Part shown: positions 9,001-50,547 of the stretch, in pieces
Layout of the letters: every line of letters starts with the position of its first letter
Position numbering within the stretch: the stretch's first letter is position 1
DNA from: Giardia intestinalis
Lineage: Eukaryota
Length of the DNA: 64,000 bases
Strand: one strand, 5' to 3'
Assembly: GCA_000002435.2 (NCBI GenBank)
Contig: CM018792.1
Notes under the pieces: generated by a model
The model's input: the letters and a program-made list of their open reading frames with translations, nothing else
Databases searched by the model: none
Told to the model about the DNA's origin: nothing
Program-made: the position numbers and the translations under genes

Positions 9001-12000
9001 GAGCGCAGTTCGGCGCGAGTACAGTTGCTTGGCGTTTTCAGGGATGTCGTATCCTAACTTGCTCCAGTACATGACTTCCTGCAAGCAGTTCTTGATAGAG
9101 ACAGGGTACTGAAGGCTAACCCGATTCAGAAGAAGGATTGTGTTCGTCGTCTCCTCGTGGGGCTCGTCCTTTGCTTGGGGTGCTTTCTTAGCTTTGTCAC
9201 TTGATGTCCCCATGTCCAGGGCGTTAAGTGCCGAGTCGACGTTTAGTTTTTCCTTAAGAGCATCTGGAATGGGCGTGAGAGCCATGATCGGCTTCTCTAG
9301 CTCTGCCTCGAAATTGTACGACTTGATGCTCGAAACCCATTCGCGGAAGTTTCTGTCTATGTAGCTTTCAAAAAGAGCTTTAGTTTTGGCGTAAATCTCA
9401 ATGGCCTCGCGTTCGTCGCGGGAGTAGTTGACTAATAGTTCGACTGCCTGCCTGCTATCATTGGTTCCAACACCAGATGCCGCGGCTGCAGCATTCCTCC
9501 GCTCCCTGTTTAGGAGTTCTGAGGCAACTTGGCGAGCACCTGGGGAAAGCCATATGACAAGGGCATCCCAGTCACGCTCCAAAGCGCTGAGTAACCGTTT
9601 AATATTCACCGAATTCATAGCGATGCGCGGCTGGAATGAAGCAAATGTCAACACCGTAGAGTGTGCCACCGTCGTCGCCATACTGGCCGAGGCCTGGTCA
9701 ACGTCCAGTTTGCGCTCGGGTTGAGCATGCTCGTCTGTGCCACTGAGTGCCACCTTTGCTGATGCCTTTGCAGTTCCAGAATTAGCTCCACTGACAGCCT
9801 TCGTCGACCTGGCTTTTGTCCCCAGTGGGGCTTTTGCAGCTGCCAGCTTGGTAGTCCTTTTAGTGTCCCTAGCCTCTGACGGTTTGCTTTCAACATTGGT
9901 AGTGTTAGACGCTGTCCTTAAAAGCTCAAACTGGCTTTTTATCTGTCCTGCCTTCTCAATGAAAAGGCGCACAGTATCGAGAGTTTTCTTTTCCACAGAG
10001 CGTCTGAACGCTGGGCGACTAGATAAATGGCTAAACGCCTCAAGGATAGCGCAGGTTTCAACAACGGAGTGGCTAGATTGGGAAAAGTTTGTTGAGATAA
10101 TGTTCTCAGTGAAGATAGTGAGCGCCTTGATCCCCTGACGGTAGGCTGCGACAGACTCGTGCCACGAGTTTGATCGCACGTCAAAGTGATTGTATGGAAC
10201 ACGAGAAAGAAGGGCGAGATGGCGTAAGAATGTGCGCTGAATCTCCCTAAAGGACCGCCGGATCATTTGGCCTAAACTTCCTCCAAATTTAGGAAGAAGA
10301 TACTCAGCAGAGTTAATGTCTGCAAGTGATGCCGTGTTAAGGTTATCGTAAGGTGGCTTTCCAATCTGAGAGAGGAGACTCATGTCGACTGTCAATCCAT
10401 TAGGAAGCTCTATTGTTTCTGTTTTAGGTGTGGCAGAGAACGTGTTCTCCTTAATATGTTGCTTCCCATTTTGCTCTGCACCCGCATTGGAATTAGTGTG
10501 GCGCTGTAAGAATCCATCCTTCGAGGCAATTAACGTGTCTGCACGAGAAAACTGGAGCCTATCCTGACATATTTCGCACAGGTCAATGCATCTCTGGCCA
10601 AACGCCTCTGCAGAGGAGACCACTGAAGAATCGAAGGACCACTCCATGAACGGCTGGTCAGGTCTTTGTTTCCGCAGAAGCAGGCAATAGACCGTTTTGT
10701 GATACTGTGGAGGAATATGGTTAAGTGCAGCAGGGTTATCGTAGCTATCCTCTGTCCCTTCGCCTTCTTCAGTTCTCTCATCGGGCTCGGGAACTGGCTC
10801 CGGCTCAGGAGGAGGCAGCGCGCCCATCTGTGCCTCTGCCTCAATGGCTGCCTTTTTGGCCGTTTCTATTTCTGTAACAAGGTCCTCGTGCTCCTTTGTA
10901 TTGTCACACGCCTGCTTATATAGCAATATCCACGAATTGATGATTGCATTGCATCCAATAAGATCGTGAATAGACCGGAGACTGTCCCCGACAAAGATAT
11001 CATACAGGCTAACCATGGATACCAGGCTATTAACCACAAGCGACGAGACACGCCGCAACAGCCCAGACAAGTTAGCCACGTTAGAATAGTATGCTGACTG
11101 GGCACTTATTAGCTTTATTTGGCAGAGAAGATCCGGAAGAACTGATGCGATATCGTTTAGATCTTTTGTGGTCATCAGGGATCTACAGGCGCCCTCAATA
11201 GTCCCCAAAAACTTTAGGTTTGACATGCTTTCATTTGTGCGCTCCTTGATAACTGCAGCAAGCTCGTCGAAGGTGTCAGCGTACTGTGAGTGTGCCAGCT
11301 TCAAGGTCTCAATTACATTACACAGCGCCCTTGAGCGTAGCTGGTCCAGAACCGCTGTGAGGTCTGCAGCCCTAGTCTTCCAGTAACACAGCTCGTCCAG
11401 AGGGTCCTGCAAGCGAGGAAACGGGTGATACTTCGTTGCACAGGCATTGAGCCCTCGTGCTGCCTTTTTGCTAAACTGAGTGATGGGCCGAGATGCATCA
11501 TCAGTCTTTGGAGCCGTCCCTGGCGTTATTGCTTGTTGAGCAGTCATTGAGGTCCGTGCCATGGAGTGCACACCCGAAAGCAGCTCTTTGATTTGGCGTG
11601 TCCAATGGACAACGAGAGATTCTAACCGAGGTATGAGCTCTTTGTTGCGCGAGCCCTCTACTGGGTCTAGATCCTCAAAGCTAGGGATATACAGAACGGT
11701 TCTCCCCTTTGCAAGATAAGTCGTCTCAGTCAAGCTGGCCATATACCGCTCAATTTGGCTTAGAAAGTCGTCTCTAACACTAGATGGCCAAGTGTTGAAG
11801 GAACGAATCCAGGGAGAGTAAACAGAATTCATGGCATTCAGTAAGGACTCTGTGACGCAAGGAGACACCGTCCCCATCTGAATGTGATTTCTCCAGTCGG
11901 TGAAGTCGGCCGGCATTGTTTCAAGTCGGACGAAGTAGTAGATACTGAAGGCTAGCGTCGGCTGAGAAGTGTCCGACTTTGCCGCTGAAAAGTCTGTTGT

Positions 12001-12246
12001 ATTGGATAGAGAGTGAACAACCTCGAGTTTGTGTAGTTTCTCATTGAACCATAAAAAGAGTGAGCAGTGAGCGGAGTCTGTCGGATTGGTAAACTCTAAA
12101 AACAGCTCGTGGTATGGATCCATGTCCGTGAGCTCGATCCTATAGCCCCCGGAGGCACGCATGATATCGAGAATGAAATACAAGAACTCCTGGTCGACCG
12201 GCACCAAGTTTGTGCCCTCGACGCCACCACTCATGACCGAGTCCAT
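1..12246 (-). CDS. Dynein heavy chain, axonemal type (N-terminal tail through AAA4 and the start of the stalk; the 3' end runs off the window start)
   Basis: The minus-strand ATG at 12246-12244 is preceded by an in-frame TAA 6 nt upstream. The N-terminus translates as MDSVMSGGVEGTNLVPVDQEFLYFILDIMRASGGYRIELTDMDPYHELFLEF. The minus-strand frame with codon starts congruent to 1 mod 3 contains AAA1 P-loop GPAGTGKTETTKDLAKA (~4588-4611), AAA2 GNSGSGKTT (~3742-3765), AAA3 GVSGTGKTS (~2140-2163) and AAA4 GSGGSGRSS (~985-1015). Near position 1 there is stalk-like coiled coil (LKGGINKLMETRETVEEMRKELETTKV). The ORF track lists no ORF ending in this frame, so the reading frame is inferred to be open across the whole interval. 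The TETTKDLAKA context after the AAA1 P-loop is the axonemal-type signature. Confidence 0.93.
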   Translation of the reverse strand, partial: MDSVMSGGVEGTNLVPVDQEFLYFILDIMRASGGYRIELTDMDPYHELFLEFTNPTDSAHCSLFLWFNEKLHKLEVVHSLSNTTDFSAAKSDTSQPTLAFSIYYFVRLETMPADFTDWRNHIQMGTVSPCVTESLLNAMNSVYSPWIRSFNTWPSSVRDDFLSQIERYMASLTETTYLAKGRTVLYIPSFEDLDPVEGSRNKELIPRLESLVVHWTRQIKELLSGVHSMARTSMTAQQAITPGTAPKTDDASRPITQFSKKAARGLNACATKYHPFPRLQDPLDELCYWKTRAADLTAVLDQLRSRALCNVIETLKLAHSQYADTFDELAAVIKERTNESMSNLKFLGTIEGACRSLMTTKDLNDIASVLPDLLCQIKLISAQSAYYSNVANLSGLLRRVSSLVVNSLVSMVSLYDIFVGDSLRSIHDLIGCNAIINSWILLYKQACDNTKEHEDLVTEIETAKKAAIEAEAQMGALPPPEPEPVPEPDERTEEGEGTEDSYDNPAALNHIPPQYHKTVYCLLLRKQRPDQPFMEWSFDSSVVSSAEAFGQRCIDLCEICQDRLQFSRADTLIASKDGFLQRHTNSNAGAEQNGKQHIKENTFSATPKTETIELPNGLTVDMSLLSQIGKPPYDNLNTASLADINSAEYLLPKFGGSLGQMIRRSFREIQRTFLRHLALLSRVPYNHFDVRSNSWHESVAAYRQGIKALTIFTENIISTNFSQSSHSVVETCAILEAFSHLSSRPAFRRSVEKKTLDTVRLFIEKAGQIKSQFELLRTASNTTNVESKPSEARDTKRTTKLAAAKAPLGTKARSTKAVSGANSGTAKASAKVALSGTDEHAQPERKLDVDQASASMATTVAHSTVLTFASFQPRIAMNSVNIKRLLSALERDWDALVIWLSPGARQVASELLNRERRNAAAAASGVGTNDSRQAVELLVNYSRDEREAIEIYAKTKALFESYIDRNFREWVSSIKSYNFEAELEKPIMALTPIPDALKEKLNVDSALNALDMGTSSDKAKKAPQAKDEPHEETTNTILLLNRVSLQYPVSIKNCLQEVMYWSKLGYDIPENAKQLYSRRTALHQKKELVSLCVSEVNRVVDNLAPDEILLFRSRLSELSNYLSDAWTKIGWNTRGLLQFIMKARKLAIEAFALTCLFHNKRKTIEDCIRSLSSISLINCKLCADTSSSSSLSHAQSMEQSLADDDDAQLGERSSTSGPLQLSEFVSNQRVTLDSATRQFFETLNLAEDSLVSCYNIFRKDGPSVQAEWIQFVSQIESRIEVSLLALFVQSFEELAFIMTGRRSRPLDMSAYKPEAIPIFKLFLVLTKHPIISPSVDELNGAVVTVLRSAILGIVERIERFHISLSAKERRLREMRIAEAERIFQEKIDQREREGLQTSPAEIAVLRADIDEWASLKMPEYKVRIPYLDLFRFAINILDQPANTVTVYSPSSCPDEATDQQAKGINTNALGHAIAWIRYSLDAVCKQATTYAGNFARYSELWLEDMRGYEIRHNLLSQPLSVYEDTLKSFQRLEADLQQEESHIHLSVIQLDCTNLKTELARKSADFQSYLIDVLQEKAFSELKLVTNDLNEMILLLDKESRDLDDLQRQITNLDSAKVLIGSINERCQPIGQKFQLLMTLEANVSADKLVILNGLTDLITKAKGAIDSAQLKVAVERTKFRDQVTRDQANLTQACMDLKTLVQSEGPYSPNVVTKAIEGVALTAEDIQQAERILHRFENKYDDLLQLKEQVEHGLRIFQAEFKDVKELSIIQGMIKQLKSIWSIASAWNNYYSSVKRTQMRHIDHEQLDAEIKKNQISVRKLPNDTKAFPVSKTLALQLEEYRPVPAVSQDLKNTAMRPRHWAQISEITGIYLLIPKDTPNILGPASGGEPIAKLSNLVSSGVNLDSSTTSAGLSSSAVNNEAYDKVIIDPDSMHFTLHFIISSGLMVHAESIAAISSGATQELFIEEGMRDIVKKWHMLELNVATYQSKSYGGDVRNKPTYYILKGLEDLFANLEEHSLSISTMKGSKYARAFEQELDTWDAVLSQVSEGIEIILNSQRAWMYLETIFAASDDIRKQLPAESQLFDEANELWKKSMTRIHREKRVLVCFDILELLQTNIGSKINLRRSSVIIKSMLEISQTLDQIQKRLEDYLERKRVSFPRFYFLSNDELLEILAQSKNPLAVQPHIRKCFDAMKSLDVTDKAGTNISQYTDVSQLKPNTVVIASGMRGDCGELVPFLRNIICTGVPVEVWLGQVEDCMRATLKDMAPRCLLDMVNGKLPLEILLGKWPGQLTIASNQIRWTQHVAHALSSGAKFLDKTKLEAPTLRNKKDTFDRPGEDGLDGGDETAAEEPQEELDDEAFLMQQLMQTPGFQDCLDTVRRNLKNSRKRSMIFLSKLTEIVRKQRSEFVVPQAAPYPCNFQGSLIQNKVRSHITLEVHNRDIIEELYHAKVYNDQCFEWFSQLKYYLELVGSDFDQPSNKKKKKEEKREDMTMCIVIRQTTSILAYQYEYLANTGRLVCTPLTDRCYVTLTSALQLRKGGAPQGPAGTGKTETTKDLAKAISIQCLIFNCSEGLDYKSLGRMFSGLCQTGAWSCFDEFNRLYVDVLSVVAQQVGTILAAISKNASRFVFEGREISLKRTCGVFITMNPGYAGRSELPDNLKALFRPISMCVPQMQLICEIMILSEGFATAKSLGMKAKTLFELSNLQLSKQGHYDFGLRAMKAVLLTAGMLKRSHPEYPEDMIMMRSLKYSTEPKLVRQDTLLFTGLISDLFPGVELQDVSYGLVEAGVDIEMAVRNIHINTKQRDKIFQFLETQESRHGVMVIGNSGSGKTTCYEVLAAARARAKKAYTEYLEATQPKGAVQAKAFLKNPYCIMIKHVVDSQEIPFKAVSPYLYLLQKLYKDETGTSKHIQETVYLAKCIHYMKDVYKYDSNTGAYAFTPARDQKDTTVGDVLVEPVYDEKVRTPYDDAYDVVIDYINPKALNINQLYGAFDMATQEWVDGVVSNCIRSSSALGNDPNNKTYYTTLFDGPVDTLWIESLNSVLDDSKILTLVNGERISFPKAVNFLFEANDLSQASPATVSRAGMIYCDLSDIEWRWLYRHGIDKFYRSRTRNELVRERYGTFQFNLERAIAKVKENEGDSSNYKELIKHDVPAETNQLIIDTLEGYGMKLFNKVFDAKEQGILTQSIDYSVYSMMRTFFNMFEALAQPHNGVWIDIFDNDGMVQRVVEMYIVFSLVWAFGGSLDSDGRQHFDLIIREVEGALPVADTVWDYKVDHGRRSWVHWNEVLPRGWRPNPAIPLYSTLVPTVDTLRTEYVVKTAILHAAIESIEIRNYHTVGPANSYTTSYGVMLYGVSGTGKTSIFKNIIIPALEQGLITNSAYEYYSTLQVACDGATNLEKMFVGGNIGKYNIVSLGLSAQTSPQRLQAVLESRLQPRSTTSMGPVGGKRLLAFFDDYNLPQRDAFGSQPPLEFMRQVMDRGTMYRQKKDKYYLSSILDVDIVPAMAVPGGGRNPICARNLSLFSIFGIDSPSENVLKGIFHTLLNAHFALGFDEQIRQMVDTLVTSGIEIYAQVSSSLLPTPLKPHYVFNLRDLSKFFLSLMKADPQQQTTQDSIVRLWTHECLRVYHDRLVETDRPWFFDLLSSKLGNHFNTTLSRVFYEKQPPLFVDFLETKWISTIPNNQDPDTEVGVFQEITSKKMLKTFMEEKLREYNNSGAASMNLVLFNDAIDHCCRIARILSSPSGHALLIGSGGSGRSSMTRLAAHLQRQTVFSIDLAKNYGVAQFREDMKKLFLMAGVDNQAVCFLLSDQQIADEAFLEDVNSILSSGEIPGLFTQDEMSQIRDALSPVCKQYGMSETMENCYQMLLQRSKVNLHIVLAFSPSGEVFRRRLRMFPSLVGSCTLDLFGDWPTSALEEVALYFLSDFKELDEFENMQRVLEIDENGNIVEEKAQPPATTARGGSSQNSSRDESDTTDPTRMSLRRKLAKAFVTAHDVSHKTALEMELASKRKVHVTPAGYLSLVRLYRDILLQQRHKITNDINKLKGGINKLMETRETVEEMRKELETTKVVVLESQENCEN

Positions 12247-41562: not shown

Positions 41563-43065
41563 TCACAAAACCTTGCCCCGTAGGACAAGAAGAAGTCCAG
41601 AAAGCGATGCTGATAATACGCTCAGCATATTAACAGCTGTGTTAGATAATCGCAGTTTGCCCTGCCTCAGAGAAACGGCGCCACGGATACCCTCATTCCT
41701 ACCCAGCCTTCCATCTTGTAAGACACGGTTTTCTTGAAAGAGTGACCCTAGAAGAGAATCTGTAAGAGATCCTTGTATCCCTAGACAAAAGATATAGACG
41801 GCTTCGGGAAATGGTCTTCCTCCCTGCAGGCACCAAAGATATGCAATGGCTCCCGCACCAATAATAGATGCAACAGTCCCACAAAGAGACATGCCGCCGT
41901 CTGTGCCTGGAGGTGCAAGCTTGAGTCTTCCCAGGACAAAGACTCTGGACTCAGGCTTCGCTAGGCCCAGGCCAACCTCAGATGCCAAGGTATCAGCAAA
42001 TGCTTCTGCATAGTTAATGAACGTGAGAAAGAGAAAAGTCTGACGGTGTTGTCTCGGATATATGCGGGATATTAAGGAGCAAACCAGCCCTACATAGGAG
42101 TTGGAAAGAACCTGATATGCATTTCTGATAAATACATCAGCCACGAAGGTGGAGATGCGGTGCTTAAAAACTTTAGAGGCAAATAGGCTGCCGATGACAA
42201 AAAGAAATAGAGGGGTTAAGAATTCATAGCCGGCCAGCGCATGTGCAAAGAACACAAGGATTCCAGCCCGAGCCCCGTGAACAGTCAGATAATGTCTGGC
42301 TACACACAGCTCACCCATCAGGATAATAGCCCAAATAACACAGAACTTATAATAAGAATCAGCGATAATGTAATATCGCAGAACAAAGATCCCTATGAAG
42401 ACAGTTGTATTATCCCACTCGCCAGATATACGCAGAGCCTCAATGATCCCGGCAGAGACGGCGATAATGATCATCTGTGTCACGTTGAGGCCCAAATTAA
42501 GACCGAGAAAACTTTGAGATAGATAAAGACCAAGCATTGCTCCGCCGCATCCTACAAGCATACCTACAACTGTTTTTGCAGAGTCAGGCGCTCGGTAGCG
42601 CCGCCACCCAGAGGGGAAGAATGCAACTAATGAGGACAGCCCATCTCCAAACACGAGGCAAATCAAGCCCACGACACACACACGCCCGATGCTTCTGTTC
42701 CTTGTGTAGAGGAAGTTTGTTACTCCAGACCAGATCCCATATTCCAGTAAGGCGTGCTGTTTGATGATATTTTTCTTGTTCAAGCCCACTGAAACAGATC
42801 GGAGCCATGAGGTGTTCGCAAAGATGTAGAGTAAAATCCCAAATGCTATTGGCAACGCTGCTGATACCGAGGCTGCACCGATAGTCTGTGGGAGCACTGC
42901 AAGATGACATAGGTTCCCTGCCCCCGCCATCACGTGCAGACACCGCCTAGGTAATCCGCGAGGCATGACCTTCTGCAAGAGCACTAAAGTGCTGAGTAAT
43001 AAGCATACAAATGCCAGAAGAAGAGCGAGTGGTCTAACCGCCCCTTCTACGGGGAAACCCCCCAT
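41563..43065 (-). CDS. polytopic membrane protein with a CTP-dependent polyprenol-kinase-like motif (candidate dolichol kinase or DUF92/TMEM19-like)
   Basis: The track start at 43083 is a GTG, and the first ATG at 43065 is preceded by AAATTAAAA (MGGFPVEG...). There are about 10-12 hydrophobic helices. The motif VFGDGLSSLVAFFPSG...(13 aa)...SAKTVVGMLVG resembles the GD..AS..G...KT.EG signature of dolichol kinase, phytol kinase and CDS-family enzymes. The later Gly-rich motifs DGGMSLCGTVASIIGAG and RGAVSLRQG are reminiscent of DUF92. Confidence 0.55.
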   Translation of the reverse strand: MGGFPVEGAVRPLALLLAFVCLLLSTLVLLQKVMPRGLPRRCLHVMAGAGNLCHLAVLPQTIGAASVSAALPIAFGILLYIFANTSWLRSVSVGLNKKNIIKQHALLEYGIWSGVTNFLYTRNRSIGRVCVVGLICLVFGDGLSSLVAFFPSGWRRYRAPDSAKTVVGMLVGCGGAMLGLYLSQSFLGLNLGLNVTQMIIIAVSAGIIEALRISGEWDNTTVFIGIFVLRYYIIADSYYKFCVIWAIILMGELCVARHYLTVHGARAGILVFFAHALAGYEFLTPLFLFVIGSLFASKVFKHRISTFVADVFIRNAYQVLSNSYVGLVCSLISRIYPRQHRQTFLFLTFINYAEAFADTLASEVGLGLAKPESRVFVLGRLKLAPPGTDGGMSLCGTVASIIGAGAIAYLWCLQGGRPFPEAVYIFCLGIQGSLTDSLLGSLFQENRVLQDGRLGRNEGIRGAVSLRQGKLRLSNTAVNMLSVLSASLSGLLLVLRGKVL

Positions 43066-43204
43066 TTTTAATTTCAGTTCCACCGTACCACTTGTGGGTG
43101 CCTAGGTGGACGCCAACTTCTGAGGGTCCCACAGCAGAAACACTATGCTAGAATTATTCGTTGAACGAGGAGAAATAAAAAACTCATTCACATAGGACTT
43201 CGTG

Positions 43205-45721
43205 ATGATCTTCGTTTTGCTTTTTCTTTTAGGCGGAGTCTTCTTCGAGTGCACCACAGATAATGAATGTGGTGGTGATGGAGGAGTTTGTGACGTTGCA
43301 ATAAATGGGAAAAGATACTGTTCCAAGTGCGCAGGTAGCGATGCGGGAGCACGAGTGCCCATCAATGGAAAATGCAGACTGCTGAGCCTCTCACGGAGCA
43401 TATGCACAGTGCCCACGGGCAATAACCCTAATCCAGGCACGTGTACGGGCTGCATCCGTGACTTCCTCTTCTACAGGGGCGGGTGCTACCGCACGGCATC
43501 CCTGATCAACGCCATATGCAAGGAGAAGCACATCGTCGAGGAGGGGATGTACTGCGGGGCGTGCGCCATAGAGGGCGACGTCCCGATCGACGGGGTGTGC
43601 GTATCAGCAAGCACAGATAGCTCTGGAAACACGTGCGACAAGGGCGTGTGCACGACATGCGCAAGCGGATACTTCTTCCACTACGGGTCATGCTACAAAT
43701 TCGGAGGATCTCCAGGCAGCACTGTGTGTCCTAAGCCAACTAGCACTACTGGCTCTGTCTGTGATTCTTGCGGGTCGAAGTTCGTCAAGAACCCCAGTGC
43801 GAGCCCATCTGCCACCTCCTGCCTCGCGTGCTACGGCCTGGACGGGACCCTCTTCTGCGAGCGCTGCCGGATGAACGTGCTCACGAGCGCAGACGTGAAG
43901 CCCACTCTGTGCACACAGTGCAAAATAGGCTACGTGCCCGTGGATGGTCGTTGTGTGTCAACTTACTCTGCCACCTCGGCTCTTGCAGGGTGCTCTACCT
44001 ATAGCGGTAATGAGAATACAAAGGGACTTTGCGAAACGTGCTCCTCCGGCTACATGCTCTTCTACGGGAGCTGCTACTCTGTCAACGGCCCCCTCGCCCA
44101 GGCCATCTGCAAGACCGAGAACCAGATCTACCTTGGGGGAAGGGTCTTCTGCAAGCAGTGCGCCCAGGCAGACCACTACCCCATCAACGGCTTATGCATT
44201 GCTGATAAGGGATCACATACGTGCGAGGCGGGTATCTGCACAATATGCGACACCAGCACAACCCCCGTCGACAACTCCAAGGTTTTCCCGTTCTATAACG
44301 GCTGCTATGATGCAAACTCTGCAATCGGAAAGCTAATATGCCAGGAGGCGTCTAATGGAGCGTGCTCAACTTGCAATACAAACGAGACATCGAATATAAT
44401 AGCTAATCCTAATTCTGCAGATGGCCAACCAAAATGTCTTGGATGTTGGGACGAGGCAGCTACTGGGGTGGCCAACTGCGGAGGGTGTGCGACCGGCACA
44501 GACGGCGATTCCAAGATCGTCTGCAGCAAGTGCACCGACTCGACGGAACCCAAAGACAACACGTGCCCTCAGGCCCTCCCGCCCACAACGCCTGAAGGAT
44601 GCGCCGTGCAGGGCTGCCAGGCGTGCTCGAAGGACTCCCCCACGACGTGCGACGCCTGCTTCGAGCCTCTCATCATGAAAGAGGACAAGACGAAGTGCTT
44701 CGGGAGTTGCCTGGCGCTGGGCCCGGGCTACTACAACAACTCTGGGATATGCAGCCCATGCATAGAGAACTGTCTCCTTTGTACAGACGGGGCCACGTGC
44801 TCCCAGTGCGACGAAGGATATTATCTTGAACTATCGTCTGCTAATTCATCACAAGGTACTTGTAAGAAATGCGCTGCTGGCTGTTCTGCATGTAATGATG
44901 GCACTGACACTAGTTGTACAGCGTGCCTTCCTGGGTATTACATTGCAAGTGAGTCAAAAGCAAATAGAGCTGCAAAGTGTGTTCTATGTAACACTACTGA
45001 AAGCGACTACACTGGAATTCCAAATTGTATCGCTTGCTTTAGTACCGTAGGAAACAATGGGGCAAAGAATGTTAGGTGCAGTCAGTGCGAAGAAGGATAT
45101 ATTAAAAAACACAATGGATCTCAAGTTGTTTGTGAGCCTCCAACTCCAGAATGTAATGCCGCAATGTGCTCGGTTTGTGTTGAAAATAACCCAGATCGTT
45201 GTGAGCACTGCACGACCGGCGCGTACCTCTGCCCGCGGACGGCGGCGTGCACGAAGGACTGCGCCAGCTGCGGGGGCTCGATGTACCCCGACGAGGACCT
45301 CGGGGAGTGCCAGCCGTGCGACATCGCGAACTGCCGGGTCTGCGCGACGGGGCTCAAGTGCGAGAGCTGCGCGGAGAGCGCCGTCCCCATCTCCCCGGAC
45401 GTCTACCACACGGCGTGCATGGGCTGCAGCGACACCGGGGGCATGGACGGCTGGGTGGGCCTCGCGGGGTGCACGACCTGCGAGCTGACCGACAAGGGCG
45501 GCGGGAGCGTCAACTGCCTCGACCCTGGCTACTACCGGCGGGGCGGGCTCGGCGGGGGAGCAATCGCCGCCATCGTCATCGTCGTCCTCCTCGTCCTGGC
45601 CGTCGCCGGCTTCCTCGTCTGGTGGTTCGTCTTCAGGAGGGGCGGCCGGCCCAAGCGCGGGGCGAAGTACACATCGCTCATGCGGGGCGAGTCCTACGAC
45701 TACCGCCAGTCTCTAATATGA
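43205..45721 (+). CDS. High cysteine membrane protein (VSP-like cysteine-rich type I surface protein)
   Basis: The track start at 43202 is a GTG, and the ATG is at 43205. There is a signal peptide (MIFVLLFLLGGVFFEC), about 11% Cys with dozens of CxxC/CxC pairs, recurrent GGCY-like motifs (RGGCYR, YGSCYK, YGSCYS, NGCYD), and a single TM near the C-terminus (GAIAAIVIVVLLVLAVAGFLVWWFVF). The cytoplasmic tail is RRGGRPKRGAKYTSLMRGESYDYRQSLI, which is not the VSP CRGKA tail. AGTAAAC lies 7 nt after the stop. Confidence 0.85.
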   Translation: MIFVLLFLLGGVFFECTTDNECGGDGGVCDVAINGKRYCSKCAGSDAGARVPINGKCRLLSLSRSICTVPTGNNPNPGTCTGCIRDFLFYRGGCYRTASLINAICKEKHIVEEGMYCGACAIEGDVPIDGVCVSASTDSSGNTCDKGVCTTCASGYFFHYGSCYKFGGSPGSTVCPKPTSTTGSVCDSCGSKFVKNPSASPSATSCLACYGLDGTLFCERCRMNVLTSADVKPTLCTQCKIGYVPVDGRCVSTYSATSALAGCSTYSGNENTKGLCETCSSGYMLFYGSCYSVNGPLAQAICKTENQIYLGGRVFCKQCAQADHYPINGLCIADKGSHTCEAGICTICDTSTTPVDNSKVFPFYNGCYDANSAIGKLICQEASNGACSTCNTNETSNIIANPNSADGQPKCLGCWDEAATGVANCGGCATGTDGDSKIVCSKCTDSTEPKDNTCPQALPPTTPEGCAVQGCQACSKDSPTTCDACFEPLIMKEDKTKCFGSCLALGPGYYNNSGICSPCIENCLLCTDGATCSQCDEGYYLELSSANSSQGTCKKCAAGCSACNDGTDTSCTACLPGYYIASESKANRAAKCVLCNTTESDYTGIPNCIACFSTVGNNGAKNVRCSQCEEGYIKKHNGSQVVCEPPTPECNAAMCSVCVENNPDRCEHCTTGAYLCPRTAACTKDCASCGGSMYPDEDLGECQPCDIANCRVCATGLKCESCAESAVPISPDVYHTACMGCSDTGGMDGWVGLAGCTTCELTDKGGGSVNCLDPGYYRRGGLGGGAIAAIVIVVLLVLAVAGFLVWWFVFRRGGRPKRGAKYTSLMRGESYDYRQSLI

Positions 45722-47371
45722 TTCCCCAGTAAACGGAGCTATCGCCTGCCGGTGCCTGTCTCTGAACGCGCATATCCCGGAGATGTCGACGGAGCCGAGG
45801 AGCCTCCGCACCCGCAAGCGCTCCCCCGGAAAGGGCTCGGTGTCCGCCGTCTTCGAGATCGACACGCTGCACTCTGCGGCATCCGACGCGACGCAGGAGA
45901 GGCCGTTGTGGAGCACCACCCGGGAGATCTCGCTGACGTGGACGGACAGCATGGGCCGCAGGATGCACACTCGATGCCTGGCCCTGCTGGCAAAGTCCCT
46001 GACCTCGCAGTTGTAGTACCCCCGGAGCCCGAAGAAGGAGGCCCCGTGGACCCCGGTGATCGCCAGGGTCTCCAGGTCGTCCAGCAGGTGGTGGCCGAGG
46101 GCCAGGGCGTCGTAGCCGCCGGCGGACACAAAGCTCGCCAGTGTTCCGCGGCGGCAGCGAGAGCAGACGCTGCACGCAGACGCCTTCCTGGCCTCCTGCC
46201 CCGATGCATCCAGGCGGGCGATCTTGGCCGAGACGTCCATCCCAACCACCTGCTGCTCGAACGTCATGGCTCCCTCTGCGGCGTCGTCGATCGACAGCGC
46301 GCACGGGCAGAGGCTCCGTATCGTGTCCAGGATGAAGCCGGGTATCTTTGGGTCGAAGGTCACAGGGGTCACTTCCAGCGCCCCCAGGTCTCCTAGGCCG
46401 ATGGGGTCGAGCAATCCTCGTCTGGCCATTAGAGACAAAAGGGAAAGGTGAAGAAGAAGGCAGAGGCTGTCTTTTCCTCCTGAAAAGGCCACAGCTACTC
46501 GACGCAGGTTGCGAACGCGCTTTTCTCCAACCATAAAGGCAGCAATAGCGGACAGGACAGAGGTTGATGGACAAAAGGACTTGTGGACCACGTCCCCTTT
46601 ATCAGTTCTAAAGATAATCTTGACCGAAGCTAACTTATCTTGAATTGACGCCGAGGCAAAATACTCTGGAGAGCAATTGACCCTAAAATCACTGTTTGCC
46701 TGCAGCGTATGTCCTCGAAGCAACGCAGCAAAGGCTGAAGTAATATTTCTCAGGGCATGAGGGTTTATCTCTAGACTACTTGTGAGATACGACATAATCT
46801 TCAACGAATCACCAGGAGGTTCGGTAAAGCGCTTCCTGGCGGGCTGTGGGACAGTATGAGCTTCACCTGTGCATCCACTGATAAAAGAATCGAAATCCGG
46901 AGCGCATTGGAGCGAGTCAAGCTGGGTATCAGCTATGTAGAGGTACACATACATGATGCTATTTCGTGATGGCCCAGCCACGGTCGTTGCTGAAAACATT
47001 TCTAGGAACCAGTTTCTTCCCAACGTACTGTTTCTTGACCAATCTACCTCGAGGAAAAGCTTCTTATCTGGAAAGCAGGTAGAAAGCTCTTCGAGATCAG
47101 AGCAAGTCGTTAGCCCAAACGCTTGGCTAAGGCGATTTGTTATCTCCAGTGACCCGATGAGGCAGAGAGGAAAGAGTCCTCTTATCTTTCTCGCTGTGTG
47201 ATAAAGAAGTACTACGGCGAAGGCATAGTCGCGAATGGCTTTGTCGTCAGACAAGGGCTTGAGGAAATAAAAGACGGCCTTCTCCAGGACAGCTGTATCA
47301 TAGAGGATGTAAAGAGCCTGCTGAACGTGGCCGAGAGCGCTTTTCGGGGGTCTAAGAGAACGCTCGTGCAT
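45713..47371 (-). CDS. PP-loop ATP pyrophosphatase of the TtcA type (tRNA 2-thiolation family) with a ~220 aa N-terminal extension
   Basis: 552 aa, with an ATG verified at 47371. The C-terminal half has the PP-loop VAVAFSGGKDSLCLL, then CSVCSRCRRG (TtcA CSLCSRLRRG), ALGHHLLDDLETLAI (TtcA ALGHHRDDILQTLFL) and VCILRPML...LSCVASDAAECS (TtcA VIRPLAYC...IPCNLCGS). It lacks the flanking CxxC zinc fingers of Ncs6/Ctu1/TtuA. The first ~220 residues have no recognised homolog. The catalytic half is encoded by >70% GC DNA. Confidence 0.72.
   Translation of the reverse strand: MHERSLRPPKSALGHVQQALYILYDTAVLEKAVFYFLKPLSDDKAIRDYAFAVVLLYHTARKIRGLFPLCLIGSLEITNRLSQAFGLTTCSDLEELSTCFPDKKLFLEVDWSRNSTLGRNWFLEMFSATTVAGPSRNSIMYVYLYIADTQLDSLQCAPDFDSFISGCTGEAHTVPQPARKRFTEPPGDSLKIMSYLTSSLEINPHALRNITSAFAALLRGHTLQANSDFRVNCSPEYFASASIQDKLASVKIIFRTDKGDVVHKSFCPSTSVLSAIAAFMVGEKRVRNLRRVAVAFSGGKDSLCLLLHLSLLSLMARRGLLDPIGLGDLGALEVTPVTFDPKIPGFILDTIRSLCPCALSIDDAAEGAMTFEQQVVGMDVSAKIARLDASGQEARKASACSVCSRCRRGTLASFVSAGGYDALALGHHLLDDLETLAITGVHGASFFGLRGYYNCEVRDFASRARHRVCILRPMLSVHVSEISRVVLHNGLSCVASDAAECSVSISKTADTEPFPGERLRVRRLLGSVDISGICAFRDRHRQAIAPFTGESY
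45728..45734 (+). terminator. putative polyadenylation signal AGTAAAC (AGTRAAY) 7 nt after the HCMP stop codon
   Basis: It matches the AGTRAAY motif described for Giardia mRNAs and lies directly after the TGA at 45719-45721. Confidence 0.45.
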
Positions 47372-47379
47372 AGAGGGTG

Positions 47380-49407
47380 TTAAATTTTGAAAAGATTCGC
47401 CATCTCCAGCAATAGCGGCAACAGTGGTTCGAGGTGTGAAGCACCTTTATTACTCTGCAATCTGGAGTGCAGGCTTTCGTACAATGCACTTGTCTGAGGC
47501 TGTTTTTTAACGGCTTCTGGAAGAAGGGAATATGCCTTAAAAGCAAGGCTGTCCTCTGGGATTGCTGGTGGAGAAGCCTGGACTTGTGGTGTCACAAGTG
47601 TCGCCTCCACTTGCTCGGTTTTTGGTGTCTGTTGATCAGCTGTGCAACTATCTATAAGTCCACCTGAAACACTAGCTCTGAGCTCCTCAACCAGACGTGG
47701 AGCATCTGGAGTCCCAAGTGCCATCAGTATGGATTCTGAAAGCCCAACGTCACACTGAGGTGATTGTAAAAAGCGCCCTGGATACGCGGCCCGGGGATCA
47801 GCCAGTCCCGAAATGGCAGAAACGGTAAGCCTATCGCGAATGCCTGTGTGCCCTCTCTCGTTACCTGCAGGCATTCCAGATGTGGAGAGGCCCAAGTTCA
47901 CGTTCACTCCAACGCTTCCAGCTAGGGAGCGAGTGAAGGCGTACTTGGAATGTGATAAGCTCTGGCCGGTATCGATGCCCGTGACTGTCTGAGATGCTGA
48001 GGTGACCGATGCAATTGTGTCCTCCAGAAGGCTCAGATTCCCCATAGACGCTTGCGAGAGGTCAAGGCCCCCGGAGTCCTCCTTGTCTAGAACAACGGTG
48101 ATGTCACCATGTGTATTCTTCATGATCATTGGCTTGTATGCCAAGACGATGTTGACCGTGTTCTCAGTAGCAGGCGGCTGTGCAGCCTCCGGGGCTGCGT
48201 GAAGAATGCTTACACGGGTGCTTCGAGCAAGAGAGTTCGGGTGTCCGATGGCCGTAAAGATATTAGTCTCAATAAATCCTAGATTGCGTACTTCGTCACG
48301 CACAAGCTTGTGCACCTCGAATATGCTGACACGGTCCTTGGGGCGCTGGACAAGACACAGGGAAATAATGTTCTTGAGTGCGTCTGAATACTTGACACGC
48401 TTGTCCTGAAAGCTGAACTCTGCGCGATAGTTATAGCGAAGATCGTTGTCTGGAAATGGCAACCGTCTATACATCAGTCGATACAGCAATATTCCGAAGG
48501 CAAAGACATCAACAGCAGTGCCCAGGGGAAATTCAGGGTCGATCTTGATCTGCTCGGGGGCCCGGAAGCACGGGGTTGTCTTCAGCTCCAAGGACCTCAT
48601 CAAATCCTTCATCCCCTGCTCATTGTTCTTCATTAGATCTTGAAGCCTCTCGGAATCGTAAGACTCTGTGGTGCAGGATCCAAAGTCACAAAGCCTAAGA
48701 AGCTCTGGAAACTTGGTTGTGCAGCCATTATTGGCCAGTATATCGTCCAAATCATATGGCTCCAAGATCAGAATATTTTCTAACTTGAGGTCTCGATGTG
48801 AGCACCCCTTGCTGTGCAGACAGAGAATAGCAAGGGTGATGTTGTATGCAAACCTCCATATGAGTGGTTCTGGAAGAAAGACCTTGCGCTCTGAACATTT
48901 AATAAGGAGTTTGACGCAGTTCCCGCCCGAGCAATATTCAAGCAGTAGGCGGATAGTGGTGCAAGGAAGCCTTTTCATGCTATGCTTTCCCCCGTCCTGG
49001 ACTCCATGTCCCACACCGGGGACGGGGAGCGCGGAGGATGACAGCTTTAGTTCACGTTCCTGGGGCGCAAATTGTGATGATGTGATACTTGATGCTAGAT
49101 AGGACTGGGAACTGTGCATGCCATTTACGGTTAAATACTCATCAAAACACGCAAAATCTGCAGGGATATAAGTATCATCTAGAAGTAATCCGTGGAATCT
49201 AACAACACACTTTTCGTTGTTGAATCGGAGATGGAAGTAGATCTCTGTTATTGCATCATCATAAACCTTCAGGTCTGACACAGAAAGATGCTTCAATACA
49301 TACTGTTCTCCCGCACAGGATGCAGAATAAATGCGTGCAGATCCGCCCCTTGCAATCTCTTGGCCCACAATGATCTCCTTGTCTCCGAAACGCAAAATGC
49401 TATCCAT
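47380..49407 (-). CDS. Ser/Thr protein kinase, NEK-like (Giardia-type expanded NEK family)
   Basis: 675 aa, with an ATG verified at 49407. It has a Gly-rich loop GQEIARGGSARIYSA, lysine VLKHL, catalytic loop HRDLKLENILI, DFGS, and APE (FRAPEQ). An ~80 aa insertion lies between subdomains II and VI. There is a ~300 aa Ser/Thr/Gly-rich C-terminal tail without ankyrin repeats. Confidence 0.85.
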   Translation of the reverse strand: MDSILRFGDKEIIVGQEIARGGSARIYSASCAGEQYVLKHLSVSDLKVYDDAITEIYFHLRFNNEKCVVRFHGLLLDDTYIPADFACFDEYLTVNGMHSSQSYLASSITSSQFAPQERELKLSSSALPVPGVGHGVQDGGKHSMKRLPCTTIRLLLEYCSGGNCVKLLIKCSERKVFLPEPLIWRFAYNITLAILCLHSKGCSHRDLKLENILILEPYDLDDILANNGCTTKFPELLRLCDFGSCTTESYDSERLQDLMKNNEQGMKDLMRSLELKTTPCFRAPEQIKIDPEFPLGTAVDVFAFGILLYRLMYRRLPFPDNDLRYNYRAEFSFQDKRVKYSDALKNIISLCLVQRPKDRVSIFEVHKLVRDEVRNLGFIETNIFTAIGHPNSLARSTRVSILHAAPEAAQPPATENTVNIVLAYKPMIMKNTHGDITVVLDKEDSGGLDLSQASMGNLSLLEDTIASVTSASQTVTGIDTGQSLSHSKYAFTRSLAGSVGVNVNLGLSTSGMPAGNERGHTGIRDRLTVSAISGLADPRAAYPGRFLQSPQCDVGLSESILMALGTPDAPRLVEELRASVSGGLIDSCTADQQTPKTEQVEATLVTPQVQASPPAIPEDSLAFKAYSLLPEAVKKQPQTSALYESLHSRLQSNKGASHLEPLLPLLLEMANLFKI

Positions 49408-49424
49408 TCAAGAGTTTTGTCAAC

Positions 49425-49437
49425 GAAAATAAAAATG
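49425..49437 (+). promoter_or_regulatory. AT-rich initiator-like element abutting the PME-1 start codon (AAAATAAAAATG)
   Basis: The A/T-rich run lies immediately 5' of the ATG at 49435. Similar elements are seen at 30091-30105 (TTGCAAAAATAAATG), 43063-43080 on the minus strand (AAATTAAAAATG) and 12244-12258 on the minus strand (AAAGTAAAAAATG). Confidence 0.4.
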
Positions 49438-50547
49438 GGCCATCCACTGCTTCTCAAAACAGCCAACCTGGACCCTGTTCCTGAGGATAGACCAGGGACA
49501 GAAGCTCCTCCAGCACCTGCCTCTGCGGCCATCACTTTCTCTACTTCATATACAGAATGTTATGATAGCAGACTTTTCGTTGAGGCAAACGGACAAAAAG
49601 TCAACGTATACACTAAGGGGGTTTTTGATGACGTGCCTCTAATTTTCTTCGTCCACGGGGCAGGCTTTTCTGGTCTTTCCTTTGGGCCTCTAGTTAAGCG
49701 TGTGCACACAGAAGGATTCTGTGCAGCCCTGGATTTGCGCGGCCACGGTCTTACGGTCAATGAGGATGGTACTACTGCACTAGGAGATAGCATGACAATC
49801 GAGAATTTTGTAGCTGACTGTAAAGCAGTTTTGGACCATCTTTTCACACATATGTACAAGCCTGCAAATGAAAATGCCCAGAAAAAGTCTATTCTGCTGT
49901 GTGGTCACTCTCTTGGCGGGAGTATCGTTGCGCGGCTTGCAGTTGAGCTCCAGGAGTCCTATGACATCCAGCTCTGCTGCCTGATTGATATCAATGAGAC
50001 GGTGGCAATAGGTGCAATTCCCAACATGATGTCTGTTTTGAGGAAGAAGCCGCTTGCATTCTCCTCTGAGGAGGCCCTGGTGAGTTGGCTACTGTCGTCC
50101 CACACACTCTACAGCAGGTCTTCTGCGCTTTTCCAGGCTCCTGGGTTGATTCACGGGTCGCAGCATCCAAACTCCGGAAGGGTCATTGCAGATCTGATCA
50201 ACTCCGACGATAACTGGCGGGACTGGTTCATCGGATTGAATGACAACTTTCTTGGCAAATACCCTGGCTACAAGCTGCTCTTTATAGGTGGAATGGAGAA
50301 GCTTGACAAAGAGACGGAAATAGCGCATATGCAGGGCAAGCTTTCGATTGAGGTGGTACCCAACAGTGGTCACAATCTCCATGAAGATGACCCCAATACC
50401 GTGGCCTTTTACTTCATCAAGTACTTACGCCGAATGCATCTCTCGAAGAAGCTGATTCACAAACCCTTCGACTTCAAGAAGAAAGACCCCGATGAGGATC
50501 CAATTCCCCTGGAAGAAATCAAGCGTCTCTACGGCAGTGGGCAATGA
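49435..50547 (+). CDS. PPME1: Protein phosphatase methylesterase 1 (PME-1, PP2A methylesterase; alpha/beta hydrolase)
   Basis: 370 aa from the ATG at 49435, preceded by AAAATAAAA. The longer track ORF from 49288 overlaps the kinase. ALDLRGHGLTVN (PME-1 ALDLRSHGETKV), the nucleophile elbow GHSLGG, WRDWFIGLNDNFL (PME-1 WDGWFRGLSNLFL) and LLFIGGMEKLDKETEIAHMQGKLSIEVVPNSGHNLHEDDPNTVA (PME-1 [43 protein letters not shown]) all align. Confidence 0.85.
   Translation: MGHPLLLKTANLDPVPEDRPGTEAPPAPASAAITFSTSYTECYDSRLFVEANGQKVNVYTKGVFDDVPLIFFVHGAGFSGLSFGPLVKRVHTEGFCAALDLRGHGLTVNEDGTTALGDSMTIENFVADCKAVLDHLFTHMYKPANENAQKKSILLCGHSLGGSIVARLAVELQESYDIQLCCLIDINETVAIGAIPNMMSVLRKKPLAFSSEEALVSWLLSSHTLYSRSSALFQAPGLIHGSQHPNSGRVIADLINSDDNWRDWFIGLNDNFLGKYPGYKLLFIGGMEKLDKETEIAHMQGKLSIEVVPNSGHNLHEDDPNTVAFYFIKYLRRMHLSKKLIHKPFDFKKKDPDEDPIPLEEIKRLYGSGQ

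What the first reader, a model, noticed from the sequence alone, without database searches (positions are those of the whole stretch)
43205..45721. Compositional mosaic inside the High Cysteine Membrane Protein gene (three blocks with different codon usage)
The HCMP ORF is ~58-65% GC for its first ~1.6 kb. It then contains a sharply AT-rich block at ~44810-45190 (~40% GC; codons such as tgt aaa gaa aat; peptide ...YYLELSSANSSQGTCKKCAAGCSACNDGTDTSC...VCEPPTPECNAAMCSVCVENNPDRC). It switches within a few bases at ~45190 to >70% GC for the last ~530 nt, which encode the final Cys repeats, the TM helix and the cytoplasmic tail. All three blocks encode the same kind of CxxC-repeat modules. The pattern is what segmental gene conversion or recombination between paralogous cysteine-rich surface protein genes with different codon usage would produce.
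Basis: seen in the sequence. Interest (0 to 1): 0.5.

Follow-up and report, generated by a model that had tools for sequence, protein, structure and literature searches.

The report
Gene-conversion mosaic in Giardia surface-protein gene
The patchy base composition of this Giardia surface-protein gene is real: GC-rich patches are the stretches kept nearly identical to sister copies elsewhere in the genome by copy-and-paste repair, AT-rich patches are unique to this copy, and the last GC-rich patch spills into the end of the neighbouring housekeeping gene.

Summary
The window is Giardia intestinalis WB. The ORF at 43205-45721 is 100% identical to HCMP Group 3 protein XP_001708333.2. GC3 swings from 0.2 to 1.0 inside the gene. 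The AT-rich block is 44815-45204 (41.5% GC). GC then jumps to about 70% at 45205.

Two corrections apply. The first 1.6 kb is itself patchy. The GC-rich tract also does not stop at the stop codon. It runs to 46409, through the last ~690 nt of the convergent PP-loop ATPase gene.

WB carries at least six Group 3 paralogs. Local GC3 tracks identity to the other five (Spearman 0.93). The GC-rich tract starts where all copies become about 98-100% identical (~45203). It ends where homology to a paralogous locus carrying a truncated PP-loop copy ends (46408). The C-terminal block clusters by assemblage rather than by orthology, which is concerted evolution. The AT-rich block is a locus-specific cassette. 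It is shared with the P15 ortholog but was swapped out in the A2 (DH) ortholog.

Best reading: repeated ectopic gene conversion, probably GC-biased, produced the mosaic. Paralog conversion is supported. Donors with different codon usage are not needed. This is a clean example of a known kind of process and of moderate interest.

The parts
43205..45721 (+). HCMP Group 3 gene (838 aa, stop included). Cys-rich type I membrane protein. One of at least 6 Group 3 paralogs in WB.
   Evidence: 100% identical to XP_001708333.2.
43205..43430 (+). Locus-specific 5' end (signal peptide plus first ~75 aa). GC3 0.3-0.6 in 30-codon windows (0.46 overall). Not shared with paralogs.
   Evidence: 100% to the DH ortholog, 87-90% to P15_a, 47-67% to other paralogs; 0 differences between WB and DH.
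43431..44814 (+). Patchy middle region. GC3 peaks of 0.8-0.93 alternate with troughs of 0.23-0.5. It is 97-100% aa identical to WB paralog P0067 over aa 91-525. The peaks are the sub-blocks shared by all six copies.
44815..45204 (+). AT-rich block (41.5% GC, GC3 0.26). Its core, 44811-45161, is the 'alpha' variable cassette. In WB it occurs only in this copy. P15 P0001/P0088 share it, and the syntenic DH ortholog carries the 'beta' cassette instead.
   Evidence: 39.9% nt divergence from the A2 ortholog, against 0.6-0.7% in the flanks.
45205..45721 (+). GC-rich 3' block of the HCMP gene (70.6% GC, GC3 0.96). It encodes the last Cys repeats, the TM helix (45554-45634) and the cytoplasmic tail. 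It is homogenised across all assemblage-A paralogs.
   Evidence: pS 0.04-0.07 to DH paralogs, against 0.16 to P15 and 0.40 to GS_B; clustering by assemblage; family-wide identity starts at ~45203.
45713..47371 (-). Convergent PP-loop ATPase-family gene (552 aa). It overlaps the HCMP ORF by 9 nt. The SGGKDS motif lies at 46483-46466.
   Evidence: The arrangement is conserved in GS (L005), DH (L007) and L006.
45722..46408 (-). 3' ~690 nt of the PP-loop gene, which belongs to the duplicated and converted unit. 67% GC, GC3 0.83-1.0. It is 96-100% nt identical in 60-nt windows to a truncated PP-loop copy next to a paralogous HCMP in DH (L008).
   Evidence: blastn of 43224-46408 against L008 1195-4364; sliding 60-nt identity; homology ends at 46408. 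GC change-point at 46409/46410. GC3 is 0.30-0.79 in GS and 0.30-0.50 in L006 for the same codons.

Best explanation
The gene is one member of a dispersed multigene family: HCMP Group 3, with at least 6 copies in G. intestinalis WB. Its members repeatedly exchange segments by non-allelic (ectopic) gene conversion.

Segments that are exchanged are kept near-identical among copies. Above all this is the 3' ~520 nt encoding the membrane-proximal repeats, TM helix and tail. At a subset of loci it also includes ~690 nt of a co-duplicated fragment of the neighbouring PP-loop gene. These segments have been driven to very high GC (GC3 0.9-1.0), most plausibly by GC-biased repair of conversion heteroduplexes (gBGC).

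Segments that have no partner stay at, or drift to, the AT-richer background composition. These are the 5' end and the 'alpha' cassette at 44811-45161.

The compositional mosaic is therefore a map of conversion history. The AT-rich block is the unconverted, locus-specific part, and the GC-rich remainder is the derived state.

Shown here: the identity mosaic, the concerted evolution of block C, the cassette swap between A1 and A2, and the coincidence of GC edges with homology edges. Inferred: that conversion causes the GC rise (gBGC).
For: (1) Family. Six WB proteins of 832-838 aa are annotated HCMP Group 3, plus DH, P15 and B copies.

(2) GC3 of 27 non-overlapping 30-codon windows against mean identity to the other five WB paralogs gives Spearman 0.925, p=5e-12. 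Against the number of paralogs at least 90% identical, rho is 0.87. At nt level, GC against identity to DH paralog L008 gives rho 0.64, p=3e-7.

(3) Edges coincide to within 5 nt. The GC change-points are 45205 and 46409/10. Family-wide identity starts at ~45203, and L008 homology ends at 46408.

(4) Concerted evolution. In block A, P15_d (P0072) is 86% identical to WB_d and 70% to WB_a. In block C it is 97% identical to P15_a but 92% to WB_d, while WB_a and WB_d are 98% identical. Synonymous pS in block C is 0.04-0.07 between assemblage-A paralogs, against 0.16 (A-E) and 0.40 (A-B) between orthologs.

(5) Recent events. WB versus the syntenic DH ortholog differs by 0.55-0.74% in the flanks and 0% in the locus-specific 5' end. 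It differs by 5.4%, 39.9%, 2.1% and 1.6% in the paralog-shared segments. Many of these sites match another paralog.

(6) Direction of causation. The PP-loop gene is GC3 0.83-1.0 only inside the duplicated part. The same codons are 0.30-0.79 in GS and 0.30-0.50 in L006, and the gene's own 5' part is 0.37-0.63. WB-lineage third-position changes are W>S:S>W = 43:5 inside against 40:17 outside (Fisher p=0.017).

(7) Distant HCMP orthologs (L003, L004) are flat, with block GC3 of 0.24-0.43.

(8) The alpha cassette is a singleton in WB (GC3 0.26) but present in two copies in P15 (GC3 0.60). Synonymous differences are 43 W(WB)/S(P15) against 2 the other way. Polarised, they mostly fall as W>S on the P15 lineage (18, against 4 S>W in WB).

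(9) Literature. Recombination among vsp 3' ends is reported in PMC2996952. Gene-conversion tracts between AI and AII are reported as GC-enriched and VSP-enriched in PMC12669663.
Against: - gBGC has not been demonstrated mechanistically in Giardia.
- The correlation between GC3 and paralog identity could also arise if conserved modules are under stronger codon selection, or if conversion prefers DNA that is already GC-rich.
- One shared sub-block is AT-rich (about 44330-44460: GC3 0.23-0.37, yet 100% aa identity to WB_b and WB_c). Sharing alone therefore does not guarantee high GC.
- Parsimony polarisation is unreliable at this divergence and with AT-rich outgroups.
- DNA of the other five WB paralogs could not be retrieved. 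Within-WB comparisons are at protein level only, and the paralog DNA comes from DH.
- GS shows a modest GC3 rise (0.5-0.79 in patches) in the PP-loop domain, although its paralogous fragment appears decayed.
Confidence: 0.62

Rival explanations
1. Codon-usage (translational) selection. Conserved, functionally constrained modules use preferred G/C-ending codons. Fast-evolving variable cassettes are under relaxed or diversifying selection and drift to AT. On this view conversion is incidental to composition.
For: GC3 correlates with amino-acid conservation. In GS the conserved PP-loop domain has a somewhat higher GC3 (0.5-0.79) than the N-terminal extension. G/C-ending codons are reported as favoured in highly expressed Giardia genes (from my own knowledge of Lafay & Sharp 1999; not checked here).
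Against: - Within one gene (PP-loop), GC3 jumps from ~0.45 to ~0.9 exactly at the duplication edge at 46408. It does not jump at the domain start (SGGKDS at 46483).
- First and second codon positions also shift W>S inside the tract (21:7 against 27:23).
- Distant orthologs encoding the same conserved modules are flat at GC3 0.24-0.43.
- Synonymous identity among paralogs (pS 0.04-0.07) is far below the orthologous A-E/A-B values. Protein-level constraint does not explain that.
Confidence: 0.13
2. The three blocks were imported from different donor paralogs, each with its own codon usage. The AT-rich block came from an AT-rich donor gene.
For: The blocks have discordant nearest relatives. The A1/A2 cassette swap shows that ~350-bp cassettes do move.
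Against: - No family member in WB or DH carries the alpha cassette; all are 50-58% identical.
- Upstream of the gene, the P15 locus is syntenic with the window, and its HCMP has alpha in the same position. Alpha is therefore old at this locus and DH is the replaced one.
- The same cassette type has GC3 0.26 in WB and 0.60 in P15. Composition is therefore not a fixed donor property.
- The GC-rich tract crosses into a different gene.
Confidence: 0.08
3. Reverse causation. Pre-existing GC-rich DNA is a preferred substrate or initiation site for conversion. GC-rich segments are therefore homogenised because they are GC-rich, not the other way round.
For: PMC12669663 argues that non-reciprocal conversion occurs in GC-rich regions. 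The correlation itself has no direction.
Against: The PP-loop fragment is AT-richer in GS and L006 and in the gene's own unduplicated part, so the GC-rich state is derived and bounded by the duplication edge. The alpha cassette gained GC on the lineage where it is duplicated.
Confidence: 0.14
4. Assembly artefact. The WB locus is a chimera of collapsed or mis-joined paralogs.
For: Near-identical paralogs are difficult to assemble. The exact-protein look-up found no other record for this product.
Against: The protein is identical to the RefSeq/GenBank WB model. The independent P15 assembly has the same 5' end + alpha cassette + C-block architecture. DH has the same flanks and the same GC-rich tract. 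GS and L006 show the same HCMP/PP-loop tail-to-tail arrangement.
Confidence: 0.03

Closest known systems
Recombination/gene conversion among Giardia vsp genes (Adam et al. 2010, PMC2996952) and AI-AII gene-conversion tracts (PMC12669663)
   Same: The same organism and the same Cys-rich PF03302 superfamily. Conserved 3' ends are exchanged among family members. Conversion tracts of kb scale are reported, enriched in GC-rich genes and in VSPs.
   Different: This is an HCMP Group 3 gene, not a VSP (no CRGKA tail). The main HCMP paper read here does not mention conversion or recombination. Here the intragenic GC3 profile maps one-to-one onto paralog sharing, and the tract edge lies inside a non-family housekeeping gene. 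I did not find these details in the papers read.
GC-biased gene conversion in concertedly evolving multigene families (rDNA, histones, Hsp70; e.g. Escobar, Glemin & Galtier 2011 as cited in PMC10123126)
   Same: Multi-copy sequences homogenised by conversion become GC-rich relative to single-copy DNA. GC3 approaches 1. The effect ignores coding function and extends to adjacent sequence.
   Different: The process is ectopic, among dispersed copies, in a diplomonad whose AI lineage is argued to be asexual. The GC bias of repair in Giardia is inferred here, not measured.
Mosaic surface-antigen genes built by segmental conversion (Trypanosoma VSG, Plasmodium var, Giardia muris pVSP arrays, PMC7641422)
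   Same: Variable cassettes are swapped between family members on a conserved C-terminal scaffold. Here the alpha/beta cassette exchange between A1 and A2 at 44811-45161 is the example.
   Different: There is no evidence here of programmed or expression-linked switching. HCMPs are not known to undergo antigenic variation. The event is seen between isolates, not within a clone.

Membership tests
Giardia VSP/HCMP Cys-rich protein superfamily (Pfam PF03302) | Significant match to the PF03302 profile above the gathering score | tested here: met
   E=2e-39, 136 bits against a cut-off of 31.4.
HCMP Group 3 (GiardiaDB/NCBI annotation class) | Identity or close similarity to proteins annotated HCMP Group 3 | tested here: met
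   100% identical to XP_001708333.2/KAE8303553.1. 72-88% identical to five further WB Group 3 proteins.
HCMP (as opposed to VSP) | Many CxxC motifs, a C-terminal TM helix, and a cytoplasmic tail that is longer than and different from the VSP CRGKA tail (definition recalled from Davids et al. 2006; not re-read here) | tested here: met
   33 CxxC motifs, TM helix at aa 784-810, and a 28-aa tail ...RRGGRPKRGAKYTSLMRGESYDYRQSLI with no CRGKA.
Concerted evolution by interparalog gene conversion | Paralogs within a genome are more similar than orthologs between lineages for the same segment, including at synonymous sites | tested here: met
   block C clusters by assemblage while block A clusters by subfamily; pS 0.04-0.07 for paralogs, against 0.16-0.40 for orthologs.
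Concerted evolution by interparalog gene conversion | Phylogenetic discordance or breakpoints along the gene | tested here: met
   The permutation run test gave 0/5000 for WB-par1, par1-par2 and DHorth-par1. No formal GARD/RDP analysis was run.
GC-biased gene conversion (gBGC) | GC enrichment confined to converted tracts and independent of coding function | tested here: met
   the tract spans two convergent genes and ends at the duplication edge. GC3 against paralog sharing gives rho 0.93.
GC-biased gene conversion (gBGC) | Excess of W>S over S>W substitutions in tracts relative to controls, with reliable polarisation | tested here: inconclusive
   43:5 against 40:17 (p=0.017); 18 against 4. 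Parsimony was used with divergent, AT-rich outgroups.
GC-biased gene conversion (gBGC) | Biased mismatch repair or transmission demonstrated in the organism | not testable with these tools
   Needs crosses, mutation-accumulation lines or heteroduplex repair assays.
PP-loop ATPase family (neighbouring gene) | PF01171 match and the SGGxDS PP-motif | tested here: met
   37.2 bits against a cut-off of 27. SGGKDS at aa 297.

The most novel reading that the evidence does not exclude
Local GC3 in Giardia Cys-rich gene families is set quantitatively by the number of ectopic conversion partners. That would make this GC-biased gene conversion operating in a lineage (assemblage AI) argued to be asexual. 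At this locus, spill-over of a surface-protein family's conversion tract has recoded the catalytic 3' half of a single-copy PP-loop ATPase gene. GC3 there went from about 0.4 to 0.9, with W>S-biased amino-acid changes. An antigen-family process would thus be driving collateral evolution of a housekeeping gene. The base-pair-sharp edges at 45203/45205 and 46408/46409 would make this a natural experiment for measuring gBGC strength in a diplomonad.
Probability: 0.5. Interest if true: 0.6.

Novelty: new member of a known kind. Interest (0 to 1): 0.45.

Why it matters
The result turns an odd-looking composition profile into a readable record of which parts of a Giardia surface-protein gene are exchanged among paralogs and which are locus-specific.

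It gives locus-level, near base-pair evidence linking gene conversion to GC enrichment in Giardia. That bears on three things. The first is the debate about sex, recombination and conversion in assemblage A. The second is why VSP/HCMP regions and rDNA are GC-rich. The third is how to interpret 'recombination' signals and SNP hot spots between AI and AII at multigene loci.

It is also a practical warning. Apparent orthologous divergence is inflated in paralog-shared segments (about 2-10x the flanks; ~40% nt divergence, ~60x, at the swapped cassette). A neighbouring housekeeping gene can be dragged along too.

Tried and rejected
- The exact-protein look-up of the window product and of P0002/P0003 found no record. 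DNA of the other WB paralogs could therefore not be obtained. I used DH, P15, GS and GS_B loci instead.
- No paralog, internal repeat, tandem repeat or Rfam family lies in or near the region. This rules out an rDNA fragment or a structured-RNA gene as the source of the GC-rich tract.
- The second VSP-like gene downstream of the HCMP in P15 (L001 3222-5696) is only 25% identical. It is not a conversion partner.
- The GENECONV-like longest-run test is uninformative for WB against par2 in block C. All four sequences agree there, so almost no variable sites remain. I used pS and difference densities instead.
- The homolog search with the PP-loop protein returned only GS and one Logan ortholog because of the candidate cap. 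P15 PP-loop composition is therefore unknown.
- I could not confirm that runs ERR3333379/82/83 are the assemblage C/D data of PMC6939161. The paper lists only the project and GCA accessions. These loci are used only as 'distant Giardia lineages'.
- Horizontal transfer of the GC-rich tract was rejected. Both halves have Giardia orthologs in conserved synteny.
Full report
**1. What is there**

The window is Giardia intestinalis (syn. duodenalis/lamblia) isolate WB, assemblage A1. The ORF at 43205-45721 (+, 838 aa) matches Pfam VSP PF03302 at E=2e-39. [quoted passage not shown]

Upstream lies a DUF92 membrane-protein gene (41563-43083, -). Downstream, convergent and overlapping the HCMP ORF by 9 nt, lies a 552-aa PP-loop ATPase-family gene (45713-47371, -). 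The same DUF92 / HCMP / PP-loop / kinase order is found in locus L007. L007 comes from GCA_000498715.1, which I take from memory to be isolate DH, assemblage A2. The HCMP/PP-loop tail-to-tail arrangement is also found in GS (L005) and in a distant Giardia lineage (L006).

**2. The observation**

The compositional mosaic is real and extreme.

- A change-point fit puts the edges at 44815, 45205 and 46410.
- GC is 0.562 (43205-44814), 0.415 (44815-45204), 0.706 (45205-45721) and 0.670 (45722-46409). The rest of the window is at 0.49-0.50.
- GC3 in 30-codon windows is 0.20-0.37 in the AT-rich block and 0.90-1.00 in the last block.
- The within-gene SD of GC3 is 0.248. Twenty-two other ORFs in the window have 0.07-0.13, and only 1 of 1177 windows in other genes reaches 0.9.

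Two corrections apply. The first 1.6 kb is itself a series of GC3 peaks (0.8-0.93) and troughs (0.23-0.5). The GC-rich tract also does not end with the gene. It runs on through the last ~690 nt of the PP-loop gene, whose GC3 is 0.83-1.0 there and 0.37-0.63 further upstream.

No Rfam family, tandem repeat or internal repeat accounts for the tract.

**3. A multigene family with a mosaic history**

WB encodes at least six HCMP Group 3 proteins of 832-838 aa on four chromosomes. DH, P15 (assemblage E) and assemblage B have further copies.

Identity of the window protein to these copies is strongly block-dependent.

- aa 1-75 are locus-specific: 100% to the DH ortholog, 87-90% to P15 P0001, and 47-67% to other paralogs.
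- aa 91-525 are 97-100% identical to WB paralog P0067.
- aa ~540-630, the AT-rich block, are 37-57% identical to every assemblage-A copy but 77-97% to P15 P0001/P0088.
- aa 646-838 are about 100% identical to all assemblage-A copies.

Block B falls into four cassette types.

| Cassette | Carried by |
|---|---|
| alpha | the window gene, P15_a, P15_a2 |
| beta | WB_b, the DH syntenic ortholog |
| gamma | WB_c, DH_p1, DH_c |
| delta | WB_d/e/f, DH_d, P15_d |

**4. Concerted evolution**

In block A the family splits into subfamilies that predate the A/E split. P15_d is 86% identical to WB_d but 70% to WB_a.

In block C the copies cluster by assemblage instead. P15_d is 97% identical to P15_a but 92% to WB_d, while WB_a and WB_d are 98% identical.

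Synonymous differences in block C are pS 0.04-0.07 between WB and two DH paralogs. Orthologous comparisons give 0.16 (A-E) and 0.40 (A-B). For blocks A and B, the paralog pS values are 0.21-0.40 and 0.89-0.99. This is the classical signature of homogenisation by gene conversion.

**5. Recent events between A1 and A2**

Alignment of the window with the syntenic DH locus gives the following divergences.

| Segment | Divergence |
|---|---|
| Flanks | 0.55-0.74% |
| Locus-specific 5' end | 0% |
| Block A | 5.4% |
| 44811-45161 (cassette) | 39.9% |
| Block C | 2.1% |
| PP-loop fragment | 1.6% |

Many of the differing sites match another paralog. In block A there are 54 sites where DH equals par1 and 15 where WB equals par1.

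The ~350-bp alpha cassette of WB is replaced in DH by the beta cassette, which in WB belongs to paralog P0067. Upstream of the gene, the P15 locus is syntenic with the window, and its HCMP carries alpha. Alpha is therefore most likely ancestral at this locus, and DH is the converted one (inference).

**6. The GC-rich tract is bounded by homology edges**

A paralogous DH locus (L008, protein P0086) aligns to window 43224-46408 at 88.8% over 3194 nt. In L008 the HCMP is followed by a truncated 271-aa PP-loop ORF.

The homology ends at 46408, which is the GC change-point (46409/10). This lies downstream of the SGGKDS motif (46483-46466), so the truncated copy lacks the PP-motif. Inside 45232-46400 the window is 95-100% identical at nt level to L008. 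A more distant paralog (L009, 80% overall) is 95-100% identical over 45232-45650.

Family-wide identity begins at ~45203, which is the other GC change-point (45205).

A GS_B paralogous locus (L002) retains only a decayed PP-loop remnant: 70% identity over 143 nt, or 42% over aa 307-349. This suggests the co-duplication is old. The 96-100% identity in assemblage A would then be maintained by conversion rather than by recent duplication (inference).

**7. Composition follows sharing**

Across 27 non-overlapping 30-codon windows, GC3 of the window gene correlates with mean identity to the five other WB paralogs at Spearman 0.925 (p=5e-12). It correlates with the number of paralogs at least 90% identical at 0.87.

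The direction of causation is indicated by the PP-loop gene. The same codons have GC3 0.83-1.0 in WB, 0.30-0.79 in GS and 0.30-0.50 in L006, and the gene's unduplicated 5' part is ~0.45 in WB. WB-lineage third-position changes are W>S:S>W = 43:5 inside the tract and 40:17 outside (p=0.017). First and second positions give 21:7 against 27:23.

Distant HCMP orthologs (L003, L004) have block GC3 values that stay flat at 0.24-0.43.

The alpha cassette is a singleton in WB (GC3 0.26) but duplicated in P15 (GC3 0.60). Synonymous differences are 43 W(WB)/S(P15) against 2 the other way. They polarise mainly as W>S on the P15 lineage (18) rather than S>W in WB (4).

Block-B GC3 across the copies for which I have DNA rises with the apparent number of partners.

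| Copy | Partners | GC3 |
|---|---|---|
| WB alpha | singleton | 0.26 |
| GS_B | no conversion partner seen for this block | 0.32 |
| DH beta | - | 0.39 |
| P15 alpha | x2 | 0.60 |
| DH gamma | - | 0.65 |
| DH delta | x3 or more | 0.81 |
| Block C | shared by all | 0.96 |

There are few points, so this trend is only suggestive.

**8. Interpretation**

The best explanation is repeated ectopic gene conversion among HCMP Group 3 paralogs, with GC-biased outcome. Converted tracts become GC-rich and near-identical. Unshared segments remain AT-richer and divergent. The AT-rich block is thus the 'default' state and the GC-rich remainder is derived.

The identity mosaic, the concerted evolution, the cassette swap and the coincidence of edges are shown. 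The GC bias of conversion is inferred.

Rivals:
- Codon selection on conserved modules. It is contradicted by the jump inside the PP-loop gene at the duplication edge, by the flat distant orthologs, and by the very low paralog pS.
- Donors with different codon usage. No AT-rich donor was found, and the same cassette has a different GC3 in WB and P15.
- Conversion preferring pre-existing GC-rich DNA. It is contradicted by the derived state of the PP-loop fragment.
- Assembly artefact. It is contradicted by the P15, DH and GS assemblies.

One caveat remains. The sub-block at about 44330-44460 is shared with two paralogs yet is AT-rich.

**9. Relation to what is known**

- Recombination among vsp 3' ends was shown with GENECONV by Adam et al. 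2010 (PMC2996952).
- VSP regions are reported to be GC-richer (bioRxiv 10.1101/2022.03.07.483299).
- A 2025 study reports kb-scale gene-conversion tracts between AI and AII in GC-enriched, VSP-enriched genes (PMC12669663).
- gBGC has been invoked for Giardia's GC-rich rDNA (PMC10123126).
- The main HCMP paper read here does not discuss conversion (PMC7461913).

This locus is therefore a new, unusually clean example of a known kind of process. The added points are that intragenic GC3 tracks paralog sharing almost perfectly, and that the tract spills into and recodes part of a neighbouring housekeeping gene.

**10. Verdict**

Novelty: new member of a known kind. Interest: moderate (0.45).

Noticed in passing
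window 45713-45721: The HCMP ORF and the convergent PP-loop ORF overlap tail-to-tail by 9 nt, stop codons included, so there is no intergenic spacer. The DH (L007: 6506-6514) and GS (L005: 9651-9659) annotations show the same overlap.
   Followed up: partly
L008 3672-4487 (DH paralogous locus): An annotated 271-aa ORF is a truncated copy of the PP-loop gene's C-terminal 239 aa, at 95% aa identity. It lacks the SGGKDS motif, and its first ~41 codons come from unrelated sequence. It is probably a non-functional by-product of the segmental duplication, kept intact by conversion.
   Followed up: partly
window 45205-46600, both strands: Several long overlapping ORFs in other frames (for example 45678-46574 -, 298 aa; 45752-46396 +, 214 aa; 45247-45732 +, 161 aa) sit in the GC-rich tract. 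They are what stop-codon depletion at ~70% GC produces and should not be taken as genes.
   Followed up: no
window 47380-49407 (-) and 49288-50547 (+): The kinase gene and the divergent alpha/beta-hydrolase gene have ORFs that overlap by ~120 nt at their 5' ends. The DH annotation has the same overlap (L007 8170-10197 and 10078 onward). This is either a real head-to-head overlap or an over-extended start codon.
   Followed up: no
L001 3222-5696 (P15): In P15 the HCMP ortholog is followed by another VSP-family gene (824 aa, 25% identical), not by the PP-loop gene. That gene also ends in a ~600-nt block of 71-73% GC. This suggests GC-rich 3' ends are general in the family, and that synteny breaks at the HCMP 3' end in P15 (or that there is a contig problem).
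   Followed up: partly
L003, L004, L006 (Logan runs ERR3333383, ERR3333379, ERR3333382): Distant Giardia lineages have HCMP orthologs at 56-59% aa identity. Their loci are markedly AT-richer (37-44% GC) and show no intragenic GC mosaic. They may be assemblages C/D, but I could not verify that.
   Followed up: partly
L002 3409-3544 (GS_B): A decayed remnant of the PP-loop gene (70% nt identity to window 46324-46466) lies ~225 nt downstream of a second assemblage-B HCMP copy. That copy is 96.5% identical to the GS copy (L005) over its last 1157 nt and diverges after it.
   Followed up: partly
window 1-12246 (-): A very long ORF of at least 4082 codons runs off the start of the window. I did not examine it.
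   Followed up: no
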